From the IMG/VR virus record IMGVR_UViG_3300045988_000550, positions 1-5,754 of that record: a DNA stretch of 5,754 bases; one strand, written 5' to 3'. The DNA is from a virus. Under the pieces are notes generated by a model. That model was given only the letters and a program-made list of their open reading frames with translations. It was not told the DNA's origin and made no database searches. The translations under genes and the position numbers were made by a program. Each line of letters starts with the position of its first letter. The first letter of the stretch is position 1. Shown piece by piece: positions 1-5,754 of this stretch.

Positions 1-119
1 CCTTTTTTTGTTCCATGTGGAACATTACAGCCGGATGCCGCCCCGGCTGACCTTCGGACGTACGTTGATGTTCTTCGTCCGCTTTGCGGTCTGCGTAAAA
101 CGCTGCTGGTCGCCACGTC
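1..119. repeat. Terminal direct repeat, left copy. It is identical to 5636-5754 and is the signature of a circular genome assembled with an end overlap. Unique genome length is 5635 nt.
   Basis: Base-by-base comparison: cctttttttgttccatgtggaacattacagccggatgcc...ctggtcgccacgtc occurs at 1-119 and again at 5636-5754 with a constant offset of 5635. Genes and ribosome-binding sites are continuous across the junction. Confidence 0.95.
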
Positions 120-141
120 CTGCGCCGCTACGATGTGCCAT
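25..141 (-). CDS. Small Arg/Lys-rich DNA-binding/packaging peptide (phiX174 J-like, gokushovirus ORF8/VP8-like), 38 aa: MAHRSGAGRGDQQRFTQTAKRTKNINVRPKVSRGGIRL
   Basis: Hand translation of the minus strand gives ATG at rc 139-141 and TAA at rc 25-27. An SD of GGGGG (rc 149-153) lies 7 nt upstream of the ATG. The peptide has 7 Arg, 3 Lys and 1 Asp. Its C-terminal RGGIRL resembles the RGG-x-R-F/L ending that I recall for SpV4 and chlamydiaphage ORF8 peptides. It sits about 25 nt downstream of a near-consensus promoter. It is absent from the ORF track because of its size. Confidence 0.65.
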   Translation of the reverse strand: MAHRSGAGRGDQQRFTQTAKRTKNINVRPKVSRGGIRL

Positions 142-170: not shown

Positions 171-198
171 ATTGTATTAAAAAAAGAGGGCTTGTCAA
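171..198 (-). promoter_or_regulatory. Sigma70-type promoter: TTGACA (rc 193-198), 16-nt spacer, TACAAT (rc 171-176). It would drive the J-like, lysis, scaffold and capsid gene block.
   Basis: The minus strand reads cTTGACAagccctctttttttaaTACAATaaagaca. The -35 hexamer is a perfect consensus and the -10 matches 5 of 6 positions. It is positioned just upstream of the first SD/ATG of the long gene block. Confidence 0.5.
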
Positions 199-205
199 GC
201 CCTCT
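178..205 (-). terminator. Rho-independent terminator ending the rep/60-aa ORF transcription unit.
   Basis: The inverted repeat agagggcttg (185-194) / caagccctct (196-205) is perfect. It gives an effective 8-bp GC-rich stem with a 5-nt loop. On the minus strand it is followed by a run of 6-7 U (plus-strand A run at 179-185). The TGA stop of the 60-aa ORF sits in the loop. Confidence 0.75.
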
Positions 206-377
206 CAGTGAAGTATATTTCTATTTCTTCGACTTTGTACAGCGAATAGATTCCTTCGTGTTCGTTTGCGTAGTCCTTTGCTCTTCGCTTTGCGTTTTTC
301 GGTTCGTCATTGATTTTCAGTACCGTGGTCATTTTGTCGTCGTCTTTCCATGCTCTCAGTTCGTATTTGTGCTTCAT
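195..377 (-). CDS. Hypothetical 60-aa protein of unknown function: MKHKYELRAWKDDDKMTTVLKINDEPKNAKRRAKDYANEHEGIYSLYKVEEIEIYFTERA
   Basis: This is ORF-track ORF 195-386. I prefer the internal ATG (rc 375-377) because GGAAGGTG lies 6 nt upstream of it, whereas the track start is a GTG that lies inside that SD. The ORF ends in the terminator hairpin. I recognise no family. Confidence 0.5.
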   Translation of the reverse strand: MKHKYELRAWKDDDKMTTVLKINDEPKNAKRRAKDYANEHEGIYSLYKVEEIEIYFTERA

Positions 378-399
378 TTCTAGCACCTTCCCTTCTGTG

Positions 400-1555: not shown

Positions 1556-1606
1556 ATTGTCTGGCCCAAGCTTACTTGTCTATCTTGGGCCAGTTGACAC
1601 CTCCTT
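1556..1606 (-). promoter_or_regulatory. Split ribosome-binding site of VP4: AAGGAGGTG, then 4 nt, then a 33-nt perfect hairpin, then 5 nt, then ATG.
   Basis: SD AAGGAGGTG is rc 1598-1606. The hairpin arms are ctggcccaag (1561-1570) and cttgggccag (1584-1593), a 10-bp perfect stem with a 13-nt loop. The ATG is at rc 1553-1555. Confidence 0.6.
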
Positions 1607-1638
1607 TCTTTGTTATGTCTTCGTGACGCTACGAAAAC

Positions 1639-1675
1639 ATATATATATAACTTGTTGTAGTAGTAGTAGTAGTAG
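1639..1675. repeat. Two adjacent microsatellites: (AT)5 at 1639-1649 and (GTA)6 at 1657-1675.
   Basis: Read directly from the sequence: catatatatataacttgttgtagtagtagtagtagtagcg. Confidence 0.9.
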
Positions 1676-1676
1676 C

Positions 1677-1856
1677 GTTGAAACTGTTGAAAACTCTAAT
1701 TTATAGCGTTGATACGCGTAATTATCGCCCCTTTTCCTGTTGAAAGTTTTGTTCAAAACTTGTTGAAATGTTGAAAACTCTTTTTTGTCCTCAACTATGG
1801 TTGTTTTTCCTGTTGAAAACTCTGTGGAAACTGTTGAAAACTAAAGTTTTCCACAA
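1677..1856. repeat. Iteron-like array of GTTGAAAAC (GTTTTCAAC on the coding strand). There are 4 perfect and at least 6 degenerate copies, one of them inverted.
   Basis: Perfect gttgaaaac starts at 1686, 1770, 1812 and 1833; the first three extend to gttgaaaactct. Variants are at 1677 (gttgaaac), 1739 (gttgaaag), 1751 (gttcaaaac), 1762 (gttgaaat), 1824 (gtggaaac) and, inverted, 1846-1854 (gttttccac). A 14-bp repeat, ttttcctgttgaaa, occurs at 1732 and 1805. Confidence 0.85.
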
Positions 1857-1861
1857 TTTGT

Positions 1862-4426: not shown

Positions 4427-4855
4427 TCACTGTTCCGGTTTATCGTCGCTCACCTCTTCCTTTTTTTCTTCTTCCTTCGGCGGTTCGGTCTTCTGCGTCT
4501 GCTTCATCTGCGTCTGCTTCAGCTGCTTCAGCGTTTCCGCCGCCGTCTGTGCTCTCTCGTGCATCGTTACTACGTCCTTCGGCAGGTTTTCCAGCGGCGT
4601 TCCCTCGGTGTATACCATGCTCTTTGCCTTGACGCTCACGTCGCCAGCTTCCAGCCGTGCGATTGCGCTTGCGAGGTCGTAGCCCTCACCGGCCCGCTGG
4701 ATTTCCTCGTATACGTTCTCGGGCGGCTGTTCGATGTATTCGGTTGTGCCGTTCGGTCGCTTCACCGCCTTCCACGTCGGTGCCGTCTCTGAGCCTGCCT
4801 TGTTCGGCACTCTCTTGGTAGGCATCCCGAAGAACCTCACGTTAGGATTTTCCAT
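4427..4855 (-). CDS. VP3: Probable internal scaffolding protein (VP3-like), 142 aa, with a low-complexity Lys/Glu/Gln C-terminal tail.
   Basis: ATG at rc 4853-4855 with GGAG 7 nt upstream. The segment ENVYEEIQRAGEGYDLASAIARLEAGD...NLPKDV resembles the N-[IV]-Y-E-x-I-Q ... E-x-G-D ... P-x-x-[LV] pattern that I recall from gokushovirus VP3 proteins. This assignment is from memory, not from a search. Confidence 0.6.
   Translation of the reverse strand: MENPNVRFFGMPTKRVPNKAGSETAPTWKAVKRPNGTTEYIEQPPENVYEEIQRAGEGYDLASAIARLEAGDVSVKAKSMVYTEGTPLENLPKDVVTMHERAQTAAETLKQLKQTQMKQTQKTEPPKEEEKKEEVSDDKPEQ
4492..4530. repeat. In-frame 15-bp tandem duplication (tctgcgtctgcttca x2) plus a partial 9-bp unit, inside the VP3-like gene.
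   Basis: 4492-4506 equals 4507-4521, followed by gctgcttca at 4522-4530. Together they encode LKQLKQTQMKQTQKT. Confidence 0.85.
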
Positions 4856-5099
4856 TGCCGTACTCCTTTTTCAGGTCAACCAGTTTGTACAGCTGTTTCG
4901 GCTCTGCTCCGTACATTTCGCCGGTTTCGCTGTTGAACTCGCCCATCTCTACGAGGCTGATGTCTTCGATTTCCTGCAACTTGGACTCGTCTGCCTTCCA
5001 TTTTGCTGTGCGGATTGCCTGTGCTCTGTTCTGCTGGAGGAACGGATTGCTGTATCCGTTGGTTACGCTGTCGTGAAAACTGTAAAACGTGTATTTCAT
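4842..5099 (-). CDS. Conserved microvirus nonstructural protein of unknown function (possibly VP5-like), 85 aa, starting MKYTFYSFHDS.
   Basis: I chose the ATG at rc 5097-5099 over the track's GTG at 5108 because AGGTGG lies 5 nt upstream of the ATG, and the GTG is part of that SD. The pattern FYSFHDSVTNGYSNPFLQQNRAQAIRTA...LVEMGEFNSETGEM resembles the F-x-[VI]-x-D...PF...A-x-R-x-F...L-x-x-x-G-x-F-[DN]-x-x-TG family seen in gokushovirus genomes (from memory). The ATG overlaps the peptidase TGA (ATGA), and the 3' end overlaps the VP3-like start by 14 nt. Confidence 0.7.
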   Translation of the reverse strand: MKYTFYSFHDSVTNGYSNPFLQQNRAQAIRTAKWKADESKLQEIEDISLVEMGEFNSETGEMYGAEPKQLYKLVDLKKEYGNGKS

Positions 5100-5488
5100 T
5101 TTTTCCACCTTGCCTTTTTCTCTCGTGTGTCGATGTGCGTGAAAGTCCAGTAGCTTCCGATGCCGTATCTGTCCCAGTATTTATGTTTTAAGTACTGTTG
5201 TACCTTATTTGCTGGAACTCCTTTTACTCGAATATCTGCTGCCGTGCCTTTTGTGTGCTGTGAGTTTTTTACGCCGCCGATTTTCGCGTTGTATTCCGGA
5301 GTCCTGTAGCCACTGGTGATTATTACAGGTGCGTTAAAGTGCATTCTTACATCTTCCAGCACTTCTATCAGCTCTGAGTCGATGATTATTTTGTCGCATC
5401 TGCCATCTTTTTGTGCAAATTCTTTGATTTTGAAATGTGCGCTTACATGGTGGGTGCCCTGATGAAATAGGCTGTATTCATTCAGCAC
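5096..5488 (-). CDS. Zinc D-alanyl-D-alanine carboxypeptidase-like peptidoglycan hydrolase (peptidase M15 / LAS superfamily, Peptidase_M15_3-like), 130 aa. It is a candidate endolysin.
   Basis: The signature SQHTKGTAAD (S-x-H-x-x-G-x-A-x-D, with H78 and D85) plus the distal FTHID (H118) form the H/D/H zinc triad. SGYRTPEYN and KEF...D upstream of these are also typical of the family. The GTG start at rc 5486-5488 lies 5 nt after GAGGAG. No N-terminal hydrophobic signal or TM segment is visible. Confidence 0.88.
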   Translation of the reverse strand: MLNEYSLFHQGTHHVSAHFKIKEFAQKDGRCDKIIIDSELIEVLEDVRMHFNAPVIITSGYRTPEYNAKIGGVKNSQHTKGTAADIRVKGVPANKVQQYLKHKYWDRYGIGSYWTFTHIDTREKKARWKK

Positions 5489-5490
5489 TT

Positions 5491-5625
5491 TTACTCCTCT
5501 CTTTCTTCTTTGTCTGCGTCCTCTGCGTCCTCTGCGTCCTCTGCGTCCTTCACGACTGCATGGTAAATCTTATCTACCATCGCCAGAATCTTCATCAGGA
5601 TGTTTATAGTCTCTTTAAAGTCCAT
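5491..5625 (-). CDS. Small 44-aa protein with an amphipathic helix and an acidic repeat tail: MDFKETINILMKILAMVDKIYHAVVKDAEDAEDAEDADKEEREE
   Basis: ATG at rc 5623-5625 with AGGAAG 7 nt upstream. This is shorter than the 86-aa track ORF, whose upstream part begins at a GTG with no SD and overlaps the better-supported 38-aa basic ORF in another frame. The TAA lies 2 nt before the peptidase GTG. Confidence 0.55.
   Translation of the reverse strand: MDFKETINILMKILAMVDKIYHAVVKDAEDAEDAEDADKEEREE
5514..5549. repeat. Perfect 9-bp tandem repeat ctgcgtcct x4, in frame, encoding (DAE)3DA in the 44-aa protein.
   Basis: The units are at 5514-5522, 5523-5531, 5532-5540 and 5541-5549, and all four are identical. 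Confidence 0.92.
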
Positions 5626-5635
5626 TGATTCACTT

Positions 5636-5754
5636 CCTTTTTTTGTTCCATGTGGAACATTACAGCCGGATGCCGCCCCGGCTGACCTTCGGACGTACGT
5701 TGATGTTCTTCGTCCGCTTTGCGGTCTGCGTAAAACGCTGCTGGTCGCCACGTC
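5636..5754. repeat. Terminal direct repeat, right copy. It includes a truncated duplicate (5660-5754) of the 38-aa basic peptide gene found at 25-141.
   Basis: Exact identity to 1-119. The SD of the 44-aa ORF (AGGAAG, rc of 5633-5638) straddles the junction, which supports circular continuity. Confidence 0.95.

What the first reader, a model, noticed from the sequence alone, without database searches (positions are those of the whole stretch)
5096..5625. Candidate two-gene lysis cassette in a microvirus: small amphipathic peptide translationally coupled to an M15/LAS zinc peptidoglycan peptidase
Seen in the sequence: (a) The 130-aa ORF carries the complete LAS/VanY-type signature, S-x-H-x-x-G-x-A-x-D (SQHTKGTAAD) plus a distal H-x-D (THID). 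(b) Its GTG start lies 2 nt after the stop of a 44-aa ORF, and its GAGGAG SD is built from that ORF's last codons. (c) Its TGA overlaps the ATG of the next gene (ATGA). The three genes are therefore tightly coupled. (d) Residues 6-26 of the 44-aa peptide form a strongly amphipathic helix. The polar residues N8, K12, D18/K19, H22 and K26 recur every 3-4 positions on an otherwise Ile/Leu/Met/Val face. This helix is followed by an 18-residue tail with 12 acidic residues. Established knowledge: phiX174-type microviruses lyse through protein E, which inhibits MraY, and they encode no muralytic enzyme. Gokushoviruses have no established lysis gene. M15/LAS peptidases are classical endolysin catalytic domains of tailed phages. 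As far as I recall, M15-like ORFs have been noted sporadically in metagenomic microviruses without functional study. Inference: the peptidase is the lytic effector, and the upstream peptide is its membrane-access or regulatory partner. It would be an unusual partner, because holins normally have basic C-terminal tails rather than acidic ones. The peptidase has no visible signal sequence, so some export or permeabilisation partner is needed.
Basis: partly seen in the sequence, partly recalled or inferred. Interest (0 to 1): 0.75.

Follow-up and report, generated by a model that had tools for sequence, protein, structure and literature searches.

The report
Gokushovirus endolysin gene beside unrelated small gene
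This small gut phage carries a cell-wall-cutting enzyme gene borrowed from tailed phages, which has been reported in such phages since 2012, and the tiny gene in front of it is a conserved phage gene found just as often in relatives without the enzyme, so it is probably not the enzyme's lysis partner.

Summary
The window is a complete circular gokushovirus genome: 5,635 nt plus a 119-nt terminal overlap, with all genes on the minus strand.

**The peptidase.** The 130-aa ORF is a Peptidase_M15_3/LAS zinc peptidase.
- Pfam E = 1.7e-27; PHROG "endolysin" E = 8.7e-45.
- The AlphaFold2 model has pLDDT 94, and its best solved-structure matches are VanY and the 1LBU DD-peptidase.
- H78, D85, H118 and D120 are invariant.
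- It is about 53% identical to endolysins of K1-5/SP6-like podophages.

None of this is new. Roux et al. 2012 reported M15_3 genes in gokushoviruses and proposed that they are endolysins. The nearest GenBank relative (KX513864) already annotates the orthologue.

**The 44-aa ORF.** It is a real gene (pN/pS 0.12) with a strong ribosome-binding site, and it encodes one amphipathic helix. It is not a holin and not a dedicated partner.
- It has no transmembrane segment.
- Its family (863 homologues, invariant LDKIYHA motif) also occurs in 25 of 57 related contigs that have no peptidase.
- Where a peptidase is present, it belongs to one of at least three lineages and sits at one of three different positions relative to the small gene.
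- The small protein's sequence follows the phage backbone, not the peptidase.
- Its Glu-rich 3' end serves as the Shine-Dalgarno site for whichever gene follows.

**Verdict.** A horizontally acquired endolysin was inserted at an existing tightly coupled junction. How the enzyme crosses the inner membrane remains unexplained.

The parts
5096..5488 (-). M15_3 (LAS) zinc peptidoglycan peptidase gene, 130 aa, GTG start; candidate endolysin acquired by horizontal transfer
   Evidence: Pfam PF08291 E = 1.7e-27. PHROG 894 'endolysin' E = 8.7e-45. About 53% identity to endolysins of K1-5/SP6-like podophages. AlphaFold2 pLDDT 94. Top Foldseek matches are VanY, 1LBU, LdcB, Ply500 and T5 endolysin. H78, D85, H118 and D120 invariant.
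5491..5625 (-). 44-aa ORF ('SP'): a conserved gokushovirus backbone gene encoding one amphipathic helix with an invariant ...IL..LDKIYHA motif and a lineage-specific acidic tail
   Evidence: Intact, with a Shine-Dalgarno site, in all relatives. pN/pS 0.12. 863 homologues, all unnamed and from microvirus-sized contigs. Single-helix model. No Pfam, PHROG or NCBIfam hit.
5494..5499 (-). GAGGAG Shine-Dalgarno site of the peptidase, formed by the last two Glu codons of SP
   Evidence: Read from the sequence. The same arrangement serves VP5 in L030-L033 and L070.
5513..5549 (-). 9-nt tandem repeat, 4.1 copies, encoding the (DAE)n expansion of the SP tail
   Evidence: Tandem Repeats Finder, 100% matches. 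Relatives have shorter tails.
5630..5639 (-). Shine-Dalgarno-like AAGGAAGTGA upstream of the SP ATG (AAAGGAGGTGA in relatives)
   Evidence: Sequence and comparison of upstream regions.
5096..5099 (-). ATGA overlap of the peptidase stop codon and the VP5 start codon
   Evidence: Sequence.
4842..5099 (-). VP5 gene (Phage_ORF5), the gene that directly follows SP in relatives lacking the insert at this site
   Evidence: Pfam PF20577 E = 9.5e-13; junctions in L030-L033 and L070.
25..141 (-). ORF8/J-like basic 38-aa protein gene (second partial copy at 5660-5754 in the terminal overlap); lies 34 nt upstream of SP on the circular map
   Evidence: ORF list; terminal repeat; conserved ...RGGIRL protein next to SP in relatives.
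171..198 (-). Sigma-70-like promoter (TTGACA-16-TACAAT, 11/12 matches) upstream of the ORF8-SP-peptidase-VP5-VP3-VP1 gene string
   Evidence: Consensus scan only; the number of sites is not above the shuffle expectation, so this part is tentative.

Best explanation
The window is a complete gut gokushovirus genome whose 130-aa ORF is a cytoplasmically made LAS/M15_3 zinc peptidoglycan peptidase. It was captured by horizontal transfer from the endolysin lineage of tailed phages and most likely acts as the phage's endolysin at the end of infection.

The gene was inserted exactly at an existing translationally coupled junction between two backbone genes: the 44-aa gene (SP) and VP5. It took over the Shine-Dalgarno site that SP's terminal Glu codons already supplied for the downstream gene.

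SP is a genuine, strongly conserved single-helix protein of this gokushovirus clade. It predates the peptidase and is independent of it. Because polar residues D18, Y21 and H22 are invariant along with hydrophobic ones, SP most likely works by specific protein binding in the cytoplasm. Its constant position near ORF8 (J-like) and VP5 points to the DNA-packaging and assembly gene block; this last point is inference with low confidence. SP is unlikely to act as a holin.

Shown: enzyme family, fold and catalytic residues; coding status and conservation of SP; independence of SP and the peptidase. Inferred: muralytic activity and a lysis role; the role of SP. Unresolved: how the signal-less enzyme crosses the inner membrane. 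No transmembrane ORF exists on the coding strand of this clade.
For: **Enzyme identity:**

**Prior reports of the same gene in gokushoviruses:**. A microvirus peptidoglycan hydrolase has been verified experimentally in Ebor.

**Insertion at an existing junction:** SP is followed by VP5 after 4-14 nt, with the Shine-Dalgarno site in SP's last codons, in L030-L033 and L070. SP is followed by ORF8 in L026.

**SP independent of the peptidase:**
- 25 of 57 SP-bearing contigs have no peptidase.
- There are three gene orders and at least three peptidase lineages.
- SP identity follows VP4, not the peptidase.
- L080 and L081 combine a tail-less SP type with the window-type peptidase.

**SP is a real protein:** pN/pS 0.12; invariant D2, I13, L14, D18, I20, Y21, H22, A23; helix model.

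**No transmembrane ORF on the coding strand:**. The only hydrophobic candidate (1756-1613) is broken by stop codons in relatives.
Against: - Nothing here tests enzyme activity or a lysis phenotype.
- The window clade lacks any recognisable holin, so a purely cytoplasmic endolysin has no known route to the wall. That leaves room for an unconventional helper, and SP is the only unassigned neighbouring gene.
- The SP helix is strongly amphipathic, with a hydrophobic moment similar to melittin and magainin. It could therefore bind membranes peripherally.
- Many peptidase-less relatives also lack a transmembrane peptide. Their lysis factor is unknown and could in principle be SP.
- Absence of a peptidase was judged on IMG/VR contigs that are presumed, not proven, to be complete.
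Confidence: 0.7

Rival explanations
1. SP and the peptidase form a dedicated two-gene lysis cassette. SP gives the signal-less peptidase access to the membrane or periplasm, or regulates it, as an unusual holin-like or antiholin-like partner.
For: - The two genes are tightly coupled in 25 genomes of the window clade.
- SP is strongly amphipathic.
- The peptidase has no signal peptide, and no other membrane protein is encoded on the coding strand.
Against: - SP has no transmembrane segment and an acidic rather than basic tail.
- The acidic tail is missing from SP in L080 and L081, which carry the same peptidase type.
- 25 of 57 SP-bearing contigs have no peptidase.
- In 17 genomes the peptidase is not downstream of SP, and in 7 of these ORF8 lies between them.
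- SP and the peptidase do not co-vary.
- The junction architecture is the same when VP5 or ORF8 follows SP.
Confidence: 0.06
2. SP is an ancestral lysis or lysis-timing factor of this gokushovirus clade that works without a transmembrane segment. It could be a soluble single-gene-lysis inhibitor of cell-wall synthesis, or a peripheral membrane-perturbing helix. It would act with or without an acquired endolysin, and the peptidases would be later add-ons that speed up lysis.
For: - SP is universal in the clade, while peptidases and transmembrane peptides are patchy.
- Several genomes (for example L045-L048, L051, L053) have SP but neither a peptidase nor a transmembrane peptide, and no ORF large enough for a muralytic enzyme.
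- The invariant motif fits a specific, conserved target.
- SP has high amphipathicity.
Against: - There is no homology to any known lysis protein or family.
- SP is net-anionic in this lineage, which disfavours binding to an anionic membrane.
- Lysis genes of small phages are usually poorly conserved and overprinted, whereas SP is a free-standing, highly conserved gene.
- Better membrane candidates exist in relatives: single-transmembrane peptides that start at the ORF8 stop codon.
Confidence: 0.14
3. The peptidase does not act in lysis. It would instead help entry, as a virion-associated wall-opening enzyme, or remodel the host wall for another purpose.
For: The Ebor microvirus peptidoglycan hydrolase Gp7 was detected in trace amounts in virions (PMC11980548). 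No holin is present in the window clade.
Against: - The closest homologues are endolysins located in the lysis regions of tailed phages.
- The gene sits among late genes in one string with VP5, VP3 and VP1.
- Related genomes carry exactly one peptidase, of interchangeable lineage and position. That fits a modular lysis function.
- By inference, a T=1 capsid has little room for a 15-kDa passenger.
Confidence: 0.08

Closest known systems
M15_3 peptidase genes of human-gut Gokushovirinae and Alpavirinae (Roux et al. 2012, PLoS One 7:e40418); orthologue ARQ15993.1 'peptidase M15' of Human gokushovirus SH-CHD1, KX513864
   Same: Same Pfam family, same virus subfamily and same habitat. The orthologue is 94.6% identical at the amino-acid level, in a genome 88% identical at the nucleotide level. 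The same proposals were made there: horizontal acquisition and an endolysin role.
   Different: None of substance for the enzyme. Roux et al. mentioned unknown ORFs next to 5 of 11 peptidase genes but did not describe the SP family. KX513864 leaves SP unannotated.
Endolysins of K1-5/K1E/SP6-like podophages (Vectrevirus and relatives; PHROG 894)
   Same: Single-domain M15_3 enzymes of about 115-130 aa with no signal peptide, 48-58% identical to the window protein over nearly its full length.
   Different: In tailed phages the enzyme sits in a lysis region with small membrane-protein genes. The window clade has no transmembrane ORF on its coding strand.
LAS/MD-clan zinc peptidases with solved structures: Streptomyces albus DD-peptidase 1LBU, VanY, LdcB, Ply500, T5 endolysin
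   Same: The fold is shared (Foldseek probability 0.85-1.0, TM-score up to 0.57). The H-x6-D motif aligns with the zinc-ligand segment of 1LBU.
   Different: Sequence identity is only 14-23%. The E-values are modest (1.5e-3 or weaker). Which bond the enzyme cuts is unknown.
Microvirus Ebor Gp7 peptidoglycan hydrolase together with Gp1, a 45-aa membrane protein (Tainavirinae; mBio 2025, PMC11980548)
   Same: A microvirus carrying an accessory wall-degrading enzyme of tailed-phage type; Gp7 was shown to degrade peptidoglycan.
   Different: Different subfamily and host. I did not check the enzyme family of Gp7 or compare it with the window protein. Ebor has a predicted transmembrane protein; the window genome has none.
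Holins, and single-gene lysis proteins such as phiX174 E
   Same: Small size, and in this clade a position directly upstream of a muralytic enzyme gene.
   Different: SP has no transmembrane domain, an acidic rather than basic C-terminus, high sequence conservation, and occurs without any endolysin.

Membership tests
Peptidase_M15_3 (Pfam PF08291; MEROPS M15, clan MD / LAS) | Profile match above the curated gathering score across the domain | tested here: met
   96.1 bits against a cutoff of 23.2, E = 1.7e-27, profile positions 2-108 of 108.
Peptidase_M15_3 (Pfam PF08291; MEROPS M15, clan MD / LAS) | Zinc-ligand and catalytic motifs: H-x6-D within S-x-H-x-x-G-x-A-x-D, plus a distal His motif | tested here: met
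   H78, D85, H118 and D120 are invariant in 14 and in 19 sequences. H78 and D85 align with H154 and D161 of 1LBU. That those two residues are the zinc ligands of 1LBU is from my own recall.
Peptidase_M15_3 (Pfam PF08291; MEROPS M15, clan MD / LAS) | LAS / hedgehog-type alpha-beta sandwich fold | tested here: met
   AlphaFold2 pLDDT 94, pTM 0.88. The first 28 Foldseek PDB matches are all LAS or hedgehog-fold proteins with probability 0.82-1.0, although the best E-value is only 1.5e-3.
Peptidase_M15_3 (Pfam PF08291; MEROPS M15, clan MD / LAS) | Zinc-dependent cleavage of peptidoglycan peptide bonds | not testable with these tools
   Needs a zymogram or muropeptide analysis with H78A, D85A and H118A controls.
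Phage endolysin (functional class) | Orthology or close homology to enzymes annotated as endolysins in phage lysis regions | tested here: met
   PHROG 894 'endolysin' E = 8.7e-45. tblastn shows 48-58% identity to podophage proteins, many annotated as endolysin or peptidase. Those annotations are themselves mostly predictions.
Phage endolysin (functional class) | A route across the cytoplasmic membrane: a holin or pinholin gene, or a signal or SAR sequence | tested here: not met
   There is no hydrophobic N-terminus and no transmembrane ORF on the coding strand. The 47-aa hydrophobic ORF at 1756-1613 is interrupted by stop codons in relatives.
Holin (for the 44-aa ORF) | At least one transmembrane domain | tested here: not met
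   The best 18-residue Kyte-Doolittle mean is 1.23, with K12, D18 and K19 inside the segment. Hydrophobic moment 0.54 with mean hydrophobicity 0.27 indicates a surface helix, not a membrane-spanning one.
Holin (for the 44-aa ORF) | Highly charged, usually basic, C-terminal cytoplasmic tail | tested here: not met
   The tail has 12 acidic residues out of 18 and the protein's net charge is -9. The tail is short and nearly neutral in other family members.
Holin (for the 44-aa ORF) | Occurs together with an endolysin gene | tested here: not met
   25 of 57 SP-bearing contigs lack any M15 peptidase by tblastn and by HMM at E <= 10. They also have no unassigned ORF long enough for another muralytic enzyme in the 11 genomes inspected.
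Unnamed conserved small-protein family of gut gokushoviruses ('SP', defined here) | A 30-45 aa single helix with the motif (K)IL-x-x-LD(K/E)IYH(A/T), its own Shine-Dalgarno site, located between VP4 and VP5 near the ORF8/J-like gene | tested here: met
   The window protein scores 74.7 bits (E = 1.9e-21) against the family HMM. The alignment shows invariant residues. 863 database homologues, none named. 14 representative clusters. Synteny.

The most novel reading that the evidence does not exclude
SP, a roughly 35-44 aa soluble or peripheral amphipathic-helix protein with the invariant LDKIYHA motif, could be the long-sought lysis or lysis-timing factor of a large clade of gut gokushoviruses, and one that works without a transmembrane segment. 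It would act either by blocking a conserved host cell-wall or membrane target or by transiently breaching the inner membrane. This would explain two things: how genomes with neither a peptidase nor a transmembrane peptide lyse their hosts, and how signal-less, holin-less M15 endolysins of several lineages reach the wall after being plugged in around SP.
Probability: 0.1. Interest if true: 0.65.

Novelty: new member of a known kind. Interest (0 to 1): 0.22.

Why it matters
The enzyme finding mostly confirms existing knowledge. Gut gokushoviruses repeatedly capture M15 endolysin genes from tailed phages, and this genome is one more example.

The comparison adds three things.
- **A modular peptidase.** Close relatives carry one peptidase of differing lineage, at any of three sites, while other family members carry none.
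- **An undescribed small-protein family.** It is widespread and highly conserved in these phages, and should not be annotated as a holin simply because it lies next to the peptidase.
- **An open mechanistic question.** The clade appears to have an endolysin but no recognisable way to export it. That question can be tested directly with synthetic genomes or expression assays.

Tried and rejected
1. **Hidden holin on the coding strand.** I scanned all ORFs of at least 20 aa and all 18-residue windows. The only hydrophobic stretch (1756-1613, TTG start, 47 aa) is interrupted by stop codons in most relatives, so it is conserved non-coding DNA. Transmembrane-like ORFs on the plus strand are antisense artefacts of the Glu-rich and other coding sequence, and microviruses are known to express one strand only.

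2. **The 86-aa GTG-started version of the small ORF (5751-5491).** Its N-terminal conservation comes from overlap with the ORF8 gene in another frame. The Shine-Dalgarno site and ATG at 5625, and the starts in distant relatives, favour the 44-aa form.

3. **SP homologues elsewhere.** None were found in Chlamydia phage Chp2, in Bdellovibrio phage phiMH2K, or next to the podophage endolysin.

4. **SP in curated libraries.** No hits in Pfam, PHROGs or NCBIfam.

5. **Exhaustive profile search for SP.** It found only small microvirus proteins, plus one spurious 2,356-aa coiled-coil repeat protein matching 12 residues 22 times.

6. **Host clue.** No gokushovirus prophage similar to VP1 was found in 5,426 complete E. 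coli genomes.

7. **Peptidase-based locus search with a divergent alignment.** It returned mostly tailed-phage contigs, so it gave no independent estimate of how often microvirus peptidases occur without SP.

8. **Structure prediction with alignment A2.** I repeated it with database homologues.

9. **NCBIfam MepK match.** It is far below the cutoff (46 against 185 bits), so I make no claim about L,D-endopeptidase specificity.
Full report
**What the window is.** Positions 1-119 are identical to 5636-5754, so the window is a circular 5,635-nt genome with a terminal overlap left by assembly. All recognisable genes are on the minus strand:
- VP1 major capsid, 4401-2755 (Pfam Phage_F, E = 2e-144)
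- VP2 pilot protein, 2716-1862
- VP4 replication initiator, 1555-560
- a 38-aa basic ORF8/J-like protein, 141-25
- the 44-aa ORF, 5625-5491
- the 130-aa ORF, 5488-5096
- VP5, 5099-4842 (Phage_ORF5)
- VP3 scaffold, 4855-4427

The nearest GenBank record is Human gokushovirus SH-CHD1 (KX513864), with 88% nucleotide identity over 85% of the genome.

**Checking the observation.**
- The 130-aa protein contains S76-Q-H78-T-K-G-T-A-A-D85 and T-H118-I-D120.
- The small ORF ends TAA, and its last two codons, GAGGAG, lie 5 nt before the peptidase GTG. Two nucleotides separate the stop from the start.
- The peptidase TGA overlaps the VP5 ATG as ATGA at 5099-5096.
- The small protein is predicted to be a single helix. 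Its best 18-residue hydrophobic moment is 0.54, reached by 0.65% of shuffles and comparable to melittin and magainin computed the same way.
- The tail, residues 27-44, has 12 acidic residues. It includes a perfect 9-nt tandem repeat of 4.1 copies.

**The enzyme.**
- Sequence: Pfam Peptidase_M15_3 matches end to end (E = 1.7e-27), with weaker matches to the related M15_2 and M15_4 families. PHROG 894, annotated 'endolysin', matches at E = 8.7e-45.
- Structure: an AlphaFold2 model built on 19 homologues is confident (pLDDT 94, pTM 0.88). Its best solved-structure matches are all LAS or hedgehog-fold proteins: VanY, the Streptomyces albus DD-peptidase 1LBU, LdcB, ChiX, Ply500, LysECD7 and the T5 endolysin. 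Probabilities are 0.85-1.0, but the E-values are modest.
- Catalytic residues: a profile search of PDB sequences aligns H78 and D85 with H154 and D161 of 1LBU. H78, D85, H118 and D120 are invariant in both alignments.
- Relatives outside microviruses: the closest are the single-domain M15_3 proteins of K1-5/K1E/SP6-like podophages and of phiR1-37, at 48-58% identity.
- There is no hydrophobic N-terminus.

The identification as a LAS peptidoglycan peptidase of endolysin type is therefore solid. Activity and bond specificity remain untested.

**This part is already known.**
- Roux et al. 2012 (PMC3394797) reported M15_3 peptidase genes in 5 gokushoviruses and 6 alpaviruses from human samples, argued for repeated horizontal transfer, and proposed an endolysin role.
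- The orthologue in KX513864 (94.6% identical) is annotated 'peptidase M15'. KX513876 and MG945388 carry similar annotations, and nr has 'peptidase [Microviridae sp.]'.
- M15 peptidases are also described in marine Occultatumvirinae.
- A microvirus peptidoglycan hydrolase, Ebor Gp7, has been shown to degrade peptidoglycan.

**The 44-aa ORF is a real gene.** In all 18 close relatives first retrieved, it is intact and preceded by AAAGGAGGTGAnnnATG. Over 20 distinct sequences of its first 26 codons, pN/pS is 0.12, and the other two forward frames contain stop codons. A profile search found 863 homologues. All are unnamed and the contigs listed are no larger than a microvirus genome, with one exception. 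An exhaustive search of 1.8 billion cluster representatives found only small microvirus proteins, plus one spurious repeat protein. Across distant members, D2, I13, L14, D18, I20, Y21, H22 and A23 are invariant.

**It is not a partner of the peptidase.** Using the peptide family itself as a probe returned 57 viral contigs. I located VP1-VP5, ORF8, the peptide and any M15 peptidase in each by tblastn, and rechecked with HMMs. After adding loci from the peptidase searches and from GenBank, there are four arrangements across 68 genomes:

| Arrangement | Gene order | Genomes |
|---|---|---|
| A | ORF8-SP-peptidase-VP5 | 25, including the window |
| B | peptidase-ORF8-SP-VP5 | 7 |
| C | peptidase-SP-(x)-ORF8-VP5 | 10 |
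| D | SP, no peptidase | 26, of which 23 are whole contigs of at least 5.4 kb |

- Within the unbiased SP-based sample, 25 of 57 contigs lack a peptidase. The eleven type-D genomes I inspected have no unassigned ORF large enough to be another muralytic enzyme.
- The peptidases fall into at least three lineages that are 35-47% identical to one another.
- Genome pairs with VP4 92-95% identical and SP 81-94% identical carry peptidases only 41-47% identical, at different sites. Conversely, the window and L080 share a 78% identical peptidase but only 50% identical SP.
- L080 and L081 have the window-type peptidase directly downstream of an SP with no acidic tail.
- In arrangement B, SP is followed by VP5 after 4-14 nt, with the Shine-Dalgarno site made of SP's last Glu codons. 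In L026, SP is followed in the same way by ORF8.

The tight coupling and the 'Shine-Dalgarno site built from the last codons' are therefore properties of SP's 3' end that existed before the peptidase arrived. This also explains part of the tail's Glu-richness.

**Is SP holin-like at all?** Its most hydrophobic 18-residue window scores a Kyte-Doolittle mean of 1.23 and contains K12, D18 and K19. Its net charge is -9. It fails each defining holin feature that I could test. Invariant polar residues on the helix (D18, H22, and Y21 at the interface) are more typical of a specific protein-binding surface than of a membrane-active amphipathic peptide, in which only the general character of the polar face is usually kept; this is inference.

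**How does the enzyme get out?** This stays open. The coding strand of the window and of all arrangement A and B genomes has no transmembrane ORF. The only hydrophobic candidate is non-coding in relatives. In several more distant relatives, a 27-39 aa single-transmembrane peptide with a basic C-terminus starts at the ORF8 stop codon. These are better holin-like or E-like candidates, but the window has none. Because SP is universal in the clade while peptidases and transmembrane peptides are patchy, I cannot exclude that SP is itself a lysis factor of an unconventional kind. I give that about 10-15%.

**Verdict.** The most likely history is that a tailed-phage endolysin gene was inserted at the SP-VP5 junction of a gokushovirus backbone and inherited its translational coupling. 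SP belongs to an undescribed but widespread small-protein family of unknown, probably non-holin, function. Interest is low to modest. What remains worth following is the SP family and the missing export route.

Noticed in passing
window 195-386 (-): A 63-aa ORF (MLEMKHKYELRAWKDDD...) between VP4 and ORF8 is conserved as a protein, at 40-89% identity, in about 15 related gokushovirus contigs. It has no Pfam, PHROG or NCBIfam match, so it looks like another uncharacterised accessory gene.
   Followed up: partly
window 1556-1861: The VP2-VP4 intergenic region carries repeated GTTTTCAACAG-like motifs (three 26-nt copies and two further copies), a (CTA)6 run and a (TA)n palindrome at 1629-1660. It is conserved at the nucleotide level in relatives, although the 47-aa hydrophobic ORF it contains is broken by stop codons there. 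It is probably a regulatory or origin region.
   Followed up: partly
L028 3441-3560; L054 4576; L055 3824; L063 2424; L064 803; L069 4785; L071 2446; L073 5227; L075 278; L076 1217: In more distant SP-bearing gokushoviruses, an unannotated 27-39 aa single-transmembrane peptide with a basic C-terminus (for example ...DIIKEWFK) starts at or just after the stop codon of the ORF8/J-like gene. These are candidate holin-like or E-like lysis proteins. They occur both with and without a peptidase and are absent from the window clade.
   Followed up: partly
window 171-206 (-) and 2725-2744: A sigma-70-like promoter (TTGACA-16-TACAAT) overlaps a terminator-like hairpin just upstream of ORF8. A GC-rich hairpin followed by a T-run lies between VP1 and VP2. 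These are consensus matches only, and their number is not above the shuffle expectation.
   Followed up: no
window 5513-5549 (-): A perfect 9-nt tandem repeat of 4.1 copies expands the SP tail to (DAE)n. Relatives have one or two copies, so the tail length changes readily.
   Followed up: yes
L030-L034, L070, L080, L081, L152, L153: Closely related backbones (VP4 92-95% identical) carry peptidases of different lineages at different sites, always one per genome. This points to repeated cassette replacement by recombination among gut gokushoviruses.
   Followed up: partly
L045 (6,963-nt contig): This contig shows two VP4 matches (74-1345 and 5671-6849) and is about 1.2 kb longer than its relatives. 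This may be an assembly wrap-around that duplicated part of a circular genome.
   Followed up: no
L048 3751-3927, L054 2379-2591, L058 3769-3981, L063 203-415, L078 1714-1926: Peptidase-less relatives carry a conserved 58-70 aa ORF (M..QITKRFNINLT...SDIIRDAIVYYSEKM) between VP2 and VP4. By eye its pattern resembles a ribbon-helix-helix DNA-binding protein; I did not test this.
   Followed up: no
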